From NCBI GenBank assembly GCA_964016885.1, contig OZ024754.1, positions 496,001 to 560,000 of the forward strand: a DNA stretch of 64,000 nt. The letters are read 5' to 3'. Shown one piece after another: positions 8,117 to 40,129 of the stretch. The first letter of the stretch is position 1, and the number at the start of each line of letters is the position of its first letter. This DNA comes from Eledone cirrhosa. Lineage: Eukaryota. Under the pieces are notes generated by a model that saw only the letters and a program-made list of their open reading frames with translations, did not search any database and was not told the DNA's origin. Both the position numbers and the translations under genes were made by a program.

Positions 8117-8292
8117 AAAGGCTTCTACAGGACTAGAACTGTTTCATTCGGGAAAACTCATCAGGGCTTCTTGATGATTTCTCCAAATGAAACAGTTCTA
8201 GTCCTGTAGAAGCCTTTTCTATATTAAATATTTATACTCTGCTTTGTATTGAGTACCTTACTGTGGTTACCTCCGATTCGACCCGGGATAAA
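8114..8292 (+). mobile_element. Hammerhead-bearing short element, family H1, with inverted duplication (Penelope-like pLTR fragment)
   Basis: + strand ggcttc-TTGATGA-tttctccaaat-GAAAC-ag..ct-GTA-gaagcc at 8165-8214; inverted copy at 8116-8164 has an intact CTGATGA; flanked by (TA)n; homologues at 57562 and 59177. Confidence 0.8.
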
Positions 8293-24299: not shown

Positions 24300-24305
24300 A
24301 TATAT

Positions 24306-24357
<52 letters not shown>

Positions 24358-24451
24358 GCAGAACACTGGAAGGTAATATCCGTGGTGGTAGAGCACTCAG
24401 TCCATGGGACGAGTTAGGTAGAAGTGGTAACTCAACAGTTAGTTCACCATA

Positions 24452-24492
24452 CCGAGAACAATTGTTTCACCTTATGCGGATCTTCAGCTCGG
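24452..24492 (-). ncRNA. Intact minimal type I hammerhead within a 24422-24617 inverted repeat (family H6)
   Basis: Minus strand reads ccgag-CTGAAGA-tccgcataaggt-GAAAC-aatt-GTT-ctcgg. The opposite arm (24547-24587) has CTAAAGA. Confidence 0.8.
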
Positions 24493-25293
24493 ACTGGTCA
24501 TGGTTATATGCAACAGGAAGAAGAACAACCGTATGTTCTGACCTGTCCGAGCTAAAGATCCACATAAGTTGAAACAATTGTTCTCGGAATGGTGAACTAA
24601 CTGTTGTGTTACTACTTTATATATATATATATAAAGTAGTAACCCTTTAATTACCAATCCGGCCAACACCAGTTCTGGTTCTATGGGATAAAATCACCCA
24701 TTTTAAAGGTTTCCAATTCAAATTAAAATCTTCCAACACAATTTTATATAAGAACCTACATTAAGTTACTATCTTAAGTAATAAAATAATAATTTTAGTA
24801 AATCCCTCAAAATTCTTCATTAATTGAGTGTATTTCCTTAGAAATGTGGTCATGAAAGAGTTAGGACTTATGTTGAGAACATTCTGTCTTAGTAACCAGA
24901 ATACAATATTTCTTATGATGCTGATGTTAGGTGTGAAGTTTGCTGAGTAAATGTACCCCCAGCTGTTAATAAAGAGCTGCTAGGACTGAATGAGGTAGTT
25001 AAAATCAGATTCTAGAATTGTTCGGGGGGGGGTCTCTTATCTCTGATAAAAATAAAAAAATAAAAAAACAACAAAACAACCCCCTCCCCCCAAGGTTTAA
25101 ATAAACATACTATAACACAGATACAGTTTACATAAGATAGCATGGAAGAAGTGATGCTAAACAAATGATGATTACGATAGCAGTATTGATGATGATGATG
25201 GTTTCCTTTTTCATACTGTAAGAGTCTGCCACTAATTCTCATATAAAACCTTCCTATATATATAAATATATATATTTCATTTTATATATATAT

Positions 25294-29490: not shown

Positions 29491-29730
29491 ACATTATATT
29501 TCATTTAATACTATAAGGCAAGCAAGTAAAATGGGACATTATATTTCATTTAATACTATAAGGCAAGCAAGTAAAATGGGACATTATATTTCATTTAATA
29601 CTATAAGGCAAGCAAGTAAAATGGGACATTATATTTCATTTAATACTATAAGGCAAGCAAGTAAAATGGGACATTATATTTCATTTAATACTATAAGGCA
29701 AGCAAGTAAAATGGGACATTATATTTCATT
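29491..29730. repeat. 45-bp minisatellite, about 5.3 perfect copies
   Basis: Unit acattatatttcatttaatactataaggcaagcaagtaaaatggg. Confidence 0.95.
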
Positions 29731-29742
29731 GTTGACCTAGTG

Positions 29743-29870
29743 GTGATATGGCCATAACAAAAGGAAAGATTTACAGCACCTAGGTTTCCCAAGTGGTCAC
29801 CCATCGAAGTACTAACTAGACTTGACATTGTTTAACGTCGGTAATCGGATGAGCACAGGTGTTTCCAAAC
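29743..29870 (-). pseudogene. 5S rRNA pseudogene, circularly permuted
   Basis: Minus strand gives 5S nt ~18-120 (ctcatccgattaccgacgttaa..gttagtacttcgatgggtgaccacttgggaa..ggtgctgta), then a T-rich linker, then gttatggccatatcac (nt ~1-17). Confidence 0.85.
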
Positions 29871-30427
29871 CCTAAGCAAGATGGTTGGATAACATCCATG
29901 AGCTTGGTTGGTCTTGCTTGGGGGACCCAGTCAGATCAGTTGGAGATGGTTGCTTCTGACAGGACCCACTGGAAGGAGTGTTTGGGGATTCTGTGCCTCA
30001 TGATCCTCTCAAGAATAAGTGGGTGAAGAAGAAGAGACCTTGTTGGTTAGAGTGTACAACCCCCAATCATAAGGCTGTAGGTTTAATCCCTGGACTGGGT
30101 AGTGCATTGAGCCCCTCAGCAAGATATTTCATTTCACGTCACTTTTCATGATGCCCTGAATTTTGCAGTATTGCTTTTTATTGCATTTATATATATATAT
30201 ATATATATATACTGCTCATATATATATATTCAGACAAGACTGCATGTATACACGTTATGCTGGACATTCCTTCAAGAATTTTCACCATAGACTTTGTTGA
30301 CATGTATATATATATGTATATATATCCAAGGAGTGTAGCGTGGACTTACTGTAGGTTCACCCAGGTGAGCACTCAATGTCTAGGTTCACATCGGTGGCAA
30401 GGTGTAGAGCTAAACAGAGTGTAATAT

Positions 30428-30636
30428 AATAATACAAGGACGATTTGTTAAGCATTCATTACCTTTATTGATTGGTAACGTGCGTTTCGCTATTGATTAG
30501 CTCAAGGTTCGATCTGGCCCTACTCTGGAATCAACAGCAGAGGTCCAACAAGCTTTGATCGAACCTTGAGCTGATCAATAGCGAAACGCACGTCACCAAG
30601 GAATAAACGTAATGACGGCTTAACAAATCGTCCCTG

Positions 30637-30645
<9 letters not shown>
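30428..30645 (+). mobile_element. Inverted-repeat element with a degenerate hammerhead (family H7)
   Basis: About 87-bp arms; ggt-CCAACAA-gctttgatc..gatcaatagc-GAAAC-gcac-GTC-acc at 30542-30597; (ATT)n flank. Confidence 0.65.
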
Positions 30646-30668
<23 letters not shown>

Positions 30669-30994: not shown

Positions 30995-31043
<49 letters not shown>

Positions 31044-31094
31044 ATATATATATAGACAGTTGAAAATTGCAAACTTGACTGTCACCACATACTA

Positions 31095-31133
31095 TGAACC
31101 TGAAGATTGCGAAAGCATGAAAGTACTTGTTCA
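31095..31133 (+). ncRNA. Intact 39-nt minimal type I hammerhead ribozyme (family H8)
   Basis: tgaac-CTGAAGA-t-tgc-gaaa-gca-t-GAAA-gtac-TT-gttca: 5-bp stem I, GNRA-capped stem II, palindromic stem III AGTACT. Confidence 0.85.
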
Positions 31134-32027
31134 ATTAACACTTAGAATTTAATATTCTACCATACTATTTCATTATAATACCATTATAAATTTTAAAGGA
31201 TTGTAAATAAAACGAGTAAATCAGACAAAGTTGGAATTCCTCTTATTAATATAATCTTCTATACACAATCATACACACCCGTGTATATTTATCTATCTAT
31301 CTCTCTCTCTCTCTATATATATATACATATATATACATATATATTTACATATCTTTATCATACATAGGTATATTTACATATATACATCTATCTATATATA
31401 TATATATATATACAATACATATACATACAATATACGTGAGTGTGTATGTATGGTATGTGTGTGTGTGCATGAGTAAGAAGAAGAGAAGGCTTCTGAAAAA
31501 ACACATGTCAATTTTTGTACACATGGTAGACAGCAGTTCCGTTCGTTAGGTTGCTCTAGTAGCCTAAAAAATATTTAAAACAAAAACGAAACAAAAAAAA
31601 ACAGAAGCCAGCATTAACCTACTACTACTACTACTACCACCACTACAACTACTACCACCACCACCACCACCACCACCACTACTACTGCTATTCCCAAGCA
31701 ACCAACAAACTTCCTCTCAAGGCACATATTTTAGAGAACAGTAGAGCAGAGCTTCAATGTAGTCGAAAAGTAGGGGGCTAAAACATTCGATAGACATACT
31801 AAGAGAAAACCCTTCATAGAAACTAGACCACTGAAATTGTAATTTGGGCTGGTTATATACATATACATATATATATATATATTTCTCTACAATAGATTGC
31901 ATATATATATATATATAATTTTATTAAAGTTAAACAGTGAATCTTGTTGCTCTCTCAAATGCATGTCTTTAGGGGCTTATATAAATGCCCACCTTCTTCG
32001 AAGCAATTAACACACACACACACATAT

Positions 32028-39926: not shown

Positions 39927-39954
39927 GATATATATATATATATATATATATATA

Positions 39955-39993
39955 GGTATGACCCCGACGGCAGAGCTCAAGCTGTTTCGACGG

Positions 39994-40032
<39 letters not shown>

Positions 40033-40080
40033 GCCGTCGAAACAGCTTGAGCTCTGCCGTCGGGGTCATACCTTTTCCTA
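39955..40080. mobile_element. Fold-back element family H2 with (TA)n in the loop
   Basis: Perfect 45-bp arms homologous to 33010-33105. Confidence 0.8.
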
Positions 40081-40129
40081 TATATATATATATTATATAT
40101 ATATATATACTATTTAGCCGCAGTAAATT

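What the first reader, a model, noticed from the sequence alone, without database searches (positions are those of the whole stretch)
31095..31133. Intact 39-nt minimal hammerhead, best candidate for testing
Seen: stem I ugaac/guuca, core CUGAAGA, stem II ugc-GAAA-gca, GAAA, self-complementary stem III AGUACU, and predicted cleavage after CUU at 31128. It lies about 40 nt downstream of a (TA)n tract. Inference: the 6-nt palindromic stem III is too tight for a stable monomer and suggests dimeric cleavage.
Basis: partly seen in the sequence, partly recalled or inferred. Interest (0 to 1): 0.75.

Follow-up and report, generated by a model that had tools for sequence, protein, structure and literature searches.

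The report
Penelope retrotransposon hammerhead with cut footprint
This is one of about 5,000 identical copies of a tiny hammerhead RNA motif, predicted to cut itself as a pair, carried by a Penelope-type jumping gene; a small excess of genomic copies begins exactly at the predicted cut, which likely records the cutting happening in living cells.

Summary
The motif is there as described, with two corrections: the 3-bp stem II is flanked by U·U rather than G-C, and the palindrome extends to 8 nt, which can trap A14 with U17. The locus is not special. It is the 5'-truncated end (31056-~31304) of a 4.2-kb Penelope-like retrotransposon (RT + GIY-YIG), inserted in (TA)n; the 39-mer occurs 5,047 times exactly. 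Hammerheads with a palindromic helix III that cut weakly as dimers are published for these elements (PMC4209133). What this family adds: 67 of 121 sampled copies start at a TATA-preceded site 39 nt before the motif, so most templates were uncut; but a genome-wide search found 46 copies starting exactly at the predicted cut (23 of 30 inspected are true junctions) against 3, 0-2 and 2 at three control positions. A second, coarser test was weak (39 vs 24). Head-to-head arms often differ at subfamily sites, suggesting two RNAs per insertion. The scan has noted a similar cut-site excess before in other genomes. Cleavage itself is untested.

The parts
30998..31054 (.). (TA)n target tract, 5' side of the insertion
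   Evidence: copies of the family end in (TA)n on the 3' side in nearly all loci shown
31056..31304 (+). 5'-truncated Penelope-like element copy: terminal repeat plus tail, 96.4% identical to the full unit in L071
   Evidence: blastn of the L071 unit against the window; family alignments
31056..31061 (+). +1 site: the commonest 5' end of copies, inferred transcription start; in full copies a TATA box begins 31 nt upstream (absent from this stub)
   Evidence: 67 of 121 copies start at -2..+12
31095..31133 (+). type-I minimal hammerhead motif (+40..+78)
   Evidence: 5,047 exact copies
31100..31106 (+). core C3-A9 (CUGAAGA)
31107..31118 (+). stem II: 3 bp with GAAA loop, flanked by U10.1 and U11.1
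   Evidence: pair probabilities 0.40-0.87 in the leader
31121..31128 (+). 8-nt palindrome: the inner 6 nt form stem III between two RNAs; the outer A14-U17 pair would inactivate
   Evidence: predicted energies
31128..31129 (+). predicted scissile bond (+73/+74); excess of genomic 5' junctions at 31129-equivalent
   Evidence: against controls 42, 45, 46
31245..31253 (+). short 3' end of copies (+196..+201 in L071 numbering), inferred first RT start site
   Evidence: 46 of 121 copies
31254..31304 (+). optional tail, ending in (TC)n/(TA)n; inferred second RT start site; in tandem units it runs on into the ORF1 start
   Evidence: 60 of 121 copies end at +251..+278

Best explanation
The motif is the hammerhead of a Penelope-like retrotransposon's terminal repeat, and it likely cuts after U31128 only when two copies pair through the palindrome, slowly and probably with protein help, so that most RNAs are copied into the genome uncut and a few percent after cutting. 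Shown by sequence: the host element (4,202-4,204-bp unit; ORF1 of 449 aa, ORF2 of 775 aa with RT and C-terminal GIY-YIG), the motif's place on the coding strand at +40..+78 of each unit, the stub nature of this copy, and the two piles of 5' ends. Inferred: transcription from the TATA box starts at +1, so a transcript of a tandem unit carries the motif twice, 4.2 kb apart; the element's RT starts at one of two sites (+200 or about +260) on nicked (TA)n DNA and runs to the RNA's 5' end, which is +1 for an uncut RNA (this copy) or +74 for a cut one. Inferred, less sure: two RNAs are used per insertion, which would supply the partner for the double hammerhead.
For: Host element; Pfam RVT_1 E 2.9e-6 (below the curated cut-off) and GIY-YIG E 3.2e-6 (above it); 22 open ORF2 frames in the 20 loci L071-L090 (some loci overlap). 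[quoted passage not shown] Cut-site excess: fixed patterns demanding non-element bases just before position p gave 46 hits at +74, 6 at +68, 15 at +84, 3 at +102; on inspection true junctions were 23 of the 30 fetched at +74 (21 after merging two duplicate pairs), 3 of 6, 0-2 of 15 and 2 of 3; 21 vs 3, p 3e-4; 21 vs 7 pooled, p 4e-8. L199/L200 is a perfect head-to-head palindrome centred on the cut. Dimer: energies; PMC4209133 (monomer inactive, dimer weakly active). Two RNAs: arms of 29 head-to-head pairs differ at 28 of 280 subfamily-diagnostic sites against 109 of 4,566 other sites. U·U at 10.1/11.1 recurs in several other families here and is reported as tolerated (PMC3088659, passage).
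Against: No cleavage assay. The coarser test, (TA)-flanked junctions in +68..+80 versus +88..+100, gave only 39 vs 24 loci over the same part of the genome (p 0.08; hand tally), and inside +68..+80 the commonest start was +79 (11 of 49), with +73/+74 at 10 of 49. Only three control positions were tested, chosen by me after seeing the cluster, and their filters pass flanks at different rates; 16 of the 46 hits at +74 were not inspected. The lowest-energy dimer pairs A14 with U17 and is inactive (-16.4 vs -13.8), and stem I has a probability of about 0.06 in the folded leader. Absence of subfamily changes inside the motif is not significant (p 0.07). PMC11167929 found no RNA reads ending at the cut of a related hammerhead.
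Confidence: 0.7

Rival explanations
1. The motif is conserved and pairs two RNAs (a dimerisation or packaging signal) but does not cut in cells; the +74 pile comes from the RT stalling or switching template at the base of the 8-bp intermolecular helix, whose 3' end is U73.
For: The predicted best dimer is the inactive 8-bp form; U17 and U·U are weak choices; most templates are uncut; arms look like two RNAs; hammerhead mutants did not change insertion in vitro (PMC11167929).
Against: In that dimer stem I stacks on the palindrome as one 13-bp helix, so a block is expected at +79 rather than +74; every catalytic base is kept in 5,047 exact copies and in unrelated families, which pairing alone does not need.
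Confidence: 0.17
2. The +74 pile marks a minor transcription start or is a junction bias (GT microhomology, fold-back), and the hammerhead is a passenger of the terminal repeat.
For: U73-G74 is a pyrimidine-purine step; several inverted junctions share 2-nt GT microhomology (L182, L186, L192, L196, L206); the (TA)-window test is weak.
Against: The +68 control also starts with GT and has 3 junctions against at least 21; junctions at +74 include flank, inverted and ORF-joined types from both subfamilies; no TATA-like sequence lies 30 nt upstream of +74; coincidence with the scissile bond is unexplained.
Confidence: 0.08
3. Both motifs of a tandem transcript cut efficiently, giving a unit-length RNA that is circularised and serves as the main template (model proposed in PMC4209133).
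For: Units occur in tandem with motifs 4,202-4,204 nt apart; insertions longer than one unit exist (L071, L073, L074).
Against: A circle has no 5' end, yet 67 of 121 copies stop at +1, upstream of the cut, which a cut-and-ligated circle does not explain. It may be a minor route.
Confidence: 0.05

Closest known systems
Hammerheads in the pLTRs of metazoan Penelope-like elements (Cervera and De la Pena 2014, PMC4209133; parts 1-2 of 4 read, figures and supplements not seen)
   Same: Type I, intact core, 5-bp helix I, small palindromic helix III, located in the terminal repeat, thousands of mostly solitary copies, opposite-strand pairs close together, predicted dimer.
   Different: Helix II is 3 bp (6-8 bp in their examples) and lacks the G10.1-C11.1 pair they call highly conserved; sequence is nearly invariant here, as in their D. 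virilis case; they give no in-vivo evidence of cutting.
PAc, Poseidon element of Anolis carolinensis (Frangieh et al. 2024, PMC11167929; parts 1-3 of 4 read, supplements not seen)
   Same: AT-rich target, two RT start sites that define the tail, uncut RNA as main template, both target strands extended.
   Different: Single ORF, hammerhead overlaps the start codon; they found no RNA ends at the cut and did not report genomic 5' ends there in the main text. Here the motif lies in an untranslated leader and the element has two ORFs and a Cys linker.
Neptune/Nematis-type EN+ PLEs (Craig et al. 2021, PMC8557442; passages and one supplement search)
   Same: RT then CX2-5CxxC linker then C-terminal GIY-YIG; partial tandems, inverted 5' copies, tail, (TA)n targets.
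   Different: Separate ORF1 overlapping ORF2 in the -1 frame; their Fig. 1 legend allows a frameshifted ORF1 but I could not see for which clade. Clade not tested by a tree.
Small PLE hammerhead variants that cleave as dimers (Lunse, Weinberg, Breaker; RNA Biol 14:1499)
   Same: By its title and by the review PMC6765202 (passages): short palindromic stem III, cleavage as dimers.
   Different: Paper not held; not read, so whether this exact layout is in it is open.
Non-LTR retrozymes (Cervera and De la Pena 2020, PMC7229834; passages)
   Same: Type-I hammerhead in an animal repeat; dimer dependence in amphibian examples.
   Different: Those are non-coding tandem repeats of 150-450 bp with canonical hammerheads; this is the end of an autonomous element.

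Membership tests
PLE-associated type-I hammerhead with palindromic helix III | Core CUGANGA, GAAA and UH in type-I order | tested here: met
PLE-associated type-I hammerhead with palindromic helix III | Helix I of 4-5 bp, short palindromic helix III | tested here: met
   5 bp; 6-nt palindrome (8 nt with A14/U17)
PLE-associated type-I hammerhead with palindromic helix III | Lies in the terminal repeat of a PLE, on the coding strand | tested here: met
   about 375-385 nt after the ORF2 stop and about 245 nt before the next ORF1 start
PLE-associated type-I hammerhead with palindromic helix III | Self-cleavage, as a dimer | not testable with these tools
   indirect only: energies and junction excess
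Strict min-HHR consensus of PMC4209133 | G10.1-C11.1 pair and a long helix II | tested here: not met
   U·U and 3 bp; not filed under this strict consensus. U10.1-U11.1 is reported in other natural hammerheads (PMC3088659, passage)
Rfam hammerhead families | Covariance-model match | tested here: not met
   3 unrelated weak matches on 31056-31280; none among the 150 of 445 rows shown
EN+ Penelope-like elements | RT with C-terminal GIY-YIG endonuclease | tested here: met
EN+ Penelope-like elements | Partial tandems, inverted 5' copy, optional tail, microsatellite target | tested here: met
   (39 of 59 head-to-head pairs have one short and one tailed arm)
Neptune/Nematis clades | CX2-5CxxC linker between RT and EN | tested here: met
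   CX4CxxC in ORF2; definition from PMC8557442
Neptune/Nematis clades | Placement in an RT tree | not tested
Non-LTR retrozymes | Non-coding 150-450-bp tandem repeats with canonical hammerhead | tested here: not met
   unit is 4.2 kb and coding; window copy is solitary

The most novel reading that the evidence does not exclude
Penelope-like elements transpose as a two-RNA particle held by the hammerhead's palindrome, much as retroviral genomes dimerise; the double hammerhead cuts both RNAs inside the particle, and the genome keeps the record as head-to-head insertions whose arms come from different source copies and sometimes both begin at the scissile bond.
Probability: 0.25. Interest if true: 0.75.

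Novelty: new member of a known kind. Interest (0 to 1): 0.4.

Why it matters
The motif itself is ordinary for these elements. Its role is an open question: published work found low activity in vitro, no effect on insertion and no RNA ends at the cut. A young family with thousands of copies lets RNA 5' ends be read from DNA. Here they show a main end at the likely transcription start and a minor end at the predicted cut, which gives a rough in-vivo rate and a test system with intact ORFs. The hint that two different RNAs feed one insertion bears on how the head-to-head structure of these elements arises.

Tried and rejected
Rfam: no hammerhead match. Folding of the monomer: not better than shuffles. 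RNA evidence: no RNA holder listed; the runs laid are contigs of unknown kind; one search shows a tenfold step in summed depth at the +1 position, but the tool warns that this is no copy number; one search listed too few loose ends to say anything on +74. Coupled cutting of both arms: all partner arms of the inverted +74 junctions that I read also start at about +66 or later, but the search filter rejects partners ending at +1, +2, +3 or +5, so I dropped this as evidence; in the 3'-anchored sample only 2 of about 25 pairs were cut/cut (hand count). Selection on the motif: no subfamily-diagnostic site in +40..+78, p 0.07. A cap-derived G before +1 (the window has G31055): too few unambiguous cases by eye. 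A splice site at +1 or +74: rejected because junction partners are flanks and inverted arms, not a fixed upstream exon. Retrozyme: rejected. A stable structure after the slippery site: none predicted (-5.8 kcal/mol over 80 nt). Papers reporting genomic 5' ends at a PLE hammerhead cut: none found in searches (listings only); the Lunse paper and most subscription papers are not held, and supplements of PMC11167929 (Fig. S2, insertion ends) and PMC4209133 were not seen and may bear on this. Sequence look-up in earlier findings: nothing.

Full report
Observation. Two details were left out. A U stands on each side of stem II, in place of the usual G10.1-C11.1 pair. The palindrome extends to 8 nt and so includes A14 and U17. 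The core pattern occurs 10 times in the window against 0.67 in shuffles. Rfam does not report the motif and the monomer folds no better than shuffles.

What it belongs to. A search of the own genome (3.0 Gb) with 31056-31290 gave 53 matches from 40 scored candidates, 44 of them long and 92-100% identical. The exact 39-mer has 5,047 matches and its reversed control none. Longer copies lead upstream into a reading frame with RT and GIY-YIG domains. Full units are 4,202-4,204 bp and occur in tandem. L071 holds ORF1 (449 aa, no convincing Pfam match) and ORF2 (775 aa; RVT_1 E 2.9e-6, GIY-YIG E 3.2e-6) with a CX4CxxC linker, the mark of Neptune/Nematis-type elements in PMC8557442 (passages). The window holds only the last 249 bp, 96.4% identical, with no ORF nearby. 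The (TA)n tract is the insertion target, and the 40 nt between it and the motif are the element's own leader.

Ends of copies. I number from 31056 = +1. I fetched the chromosome-1 copies listed first by two 3' anchors and mapped 121 copies. At the 3' end 46 stop at +196..+201 and 60 at +251..+278, the two RT start sites and tail described for PAc in PMC11167929 (parts 1-3 read). At the 5' end 67 of 121 start at -2..+12, 29 extend further upstream, 4 start in +13..+62, 12 in +63..+80 and 9 in +81..+135; a few of these calls are alignment breaks at indels or at the diverged upstream region of an older subfamily, not true ends. In full copies a TATA box starts 31 nt before +1. I infer that +1 is the transcription start and that most templates, including the one behind the window copy, carried the hammerhead uncut. 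A TATA plus initiator in a pLTR was also noted in PMC3846280 (passage), and a start inside the pLTR was mapped for Penelope (PMC2377424, passages).

The cut site. The cluster at +63..+80 prompted genome-wide tests. One search listed 19 distinct (TA)-flanked loci in its first 100 rows, 8 starting at +73/+74, but its anchor begins at +74. I then used fixed patterns that require non-element bases at the first and third position before p. Hits: 46 at +74, 6 at +68, 15 at +84, 3 at +102. Inspection of the first 30 at +74 gave 23 true junctions and 7 local mutations or deletions. The script's classes were 15 inverted, 5 joined to the ORF, 3 flank; by eye 14, 5 and 4. Two pairs are duplicates, leaving 21. 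Controls gave 3 of 6, 0-2 of 15 (13 local changes, 2 longer deletions by eye) and 2 of 3. The contrasts are 21 vs 3 (p 3e-4) and 21 vs 7 pooled (p 4e-8). Against this: (TA)-flanked junctions number 39 in +68..+80 and 24 in +88..+100 over the same part of the genome (p 0.08; one satellite array counted once), and among all 49 loci my hand tally is +69:3, +70:1, +72:2, +73:7, +74:3, +75:7, +76:5, +77:3, +78:4, +79:11, +80:3, where AT microhomology blurs positions. Only three control positions were tried. My reading is that a few percent of templates began at the scissile bond. This is inference from DNA.

Monomer or dimer. At 37 C the open monomer is -4.2 kcal/mol and +1.1 with A15.1-U16.1 closed; the double hammerhead is -13.8 against -8.4 for two monomers; the best co-fold is -16.4 and pairs A14 with U17, which is not the active fold. 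So a dimer is needed and low activity is expected. PMC4209133 (parts 1-2 read) found no cleavage for a single min-HHR and weak cleavage for dimers; PMC11167929 found cleavage only with protein. U10.1-U11.1 is tolerated (PMC3088659, passage) and recurs in other families among the fetched loci, with different stems and palindromes, so it is not decay.

Two RNAs per insertion. In 29 head-to-head pairs with both arms starting near +1, the arms differ at 28 of 280 subfamily-diagnostic sites (10%) against 109 of 4,566 other sites (2.4%) and 46% for random pairs; 9 of 29 differ at two or more. This suggests two templates from related source copies. Caveats: three of the ten sites are neighbours, one is a CpG, and the pairs come from both best-hit and anchored samples. 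Whether the palindrome or the protein brings the RNAs together is not shown. I could not show that both arms are cut together.

Comparison and novelty. It is a member of the known PLE hammerheads with palindromic helix III, though not of the strict min-HHR consensus. I found no paper reporting genomic 5' ends at a PLE hammerhead cut, with the limits given under Tried and rejected. After my own tests I read earlier notes of this scan: several report the same excess in other genomes, one calls it mild, and two report ends at the motif's front edge, whereas here the main end is 39 nt upstream. These are unchecked notes; they do not support my result, but the idea is not new to the scan.

Verdict. 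Real motif, known kind, unremarkable copy; the family offers indirect evidence of cutting in vivo and a testable system. Interest 0.4.

Noticed in passing
L071:6051-6144 (full element, not in the window): ORF1 and ORF2 overlap in the -1 frame, with a U UUU UUA heptamer in the right phase for a -1 ribosomal frameshift; it is kept in all 61 matches among fetched loci (some loci overlap). No strong structure follows it. A paper search for Neptune plus ribosomal frameshift found nothing.
   Followed up: partly
window 24301-24617 (motif 24465-24487, - strand): A second family's hammerhead with U·U, an 8-nt palindrome and U17, in a head-to-head inverted insertion in (TA)n; related copies occur in other fetched loci.
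   Followed up: partly
window 57566, 59193 (+) and 8142-8164 (-): A third family: same U-flanked stem II layout in the first two, but a 4-bp stem III with an 8-nt loop and A17, so possibly active as a monomer; copies start just before the motif.
   Followed up: partly
window 29768-29892 (-): Degenerate 5S rRNA-like sequence (57 bits, above the gathering score) beside a perfect 45-bp tandem repeat at 29491-29730.
   Followed up: no
window 39934-40091 and 30422-30650: Two further inverted-repeat insertions next to or around simple repeats.
   Followed up: no
G000:C21 from about 2,464,900: A tandem array of about 54-bp units made from a piece of this element's leader joined to TA repeats, at least 75 units listed.
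   Followed up: no
L038-L046: A multi-copy rearranged form with two opposite-strand motifs about 270 bp apart, one of which has lost the palindrome by a shared change.
   Followed up: no
L220-L234: A recurrent short deletion just after stem I in about 11 of 15 hits, likely slippage between short repeats.
   Followed up: no
L031:3879-5371 and L033:4505-5572: Frames of another, diverged RT/GIY-YIG element inserted near or within copies of this one.
   Followed up: no
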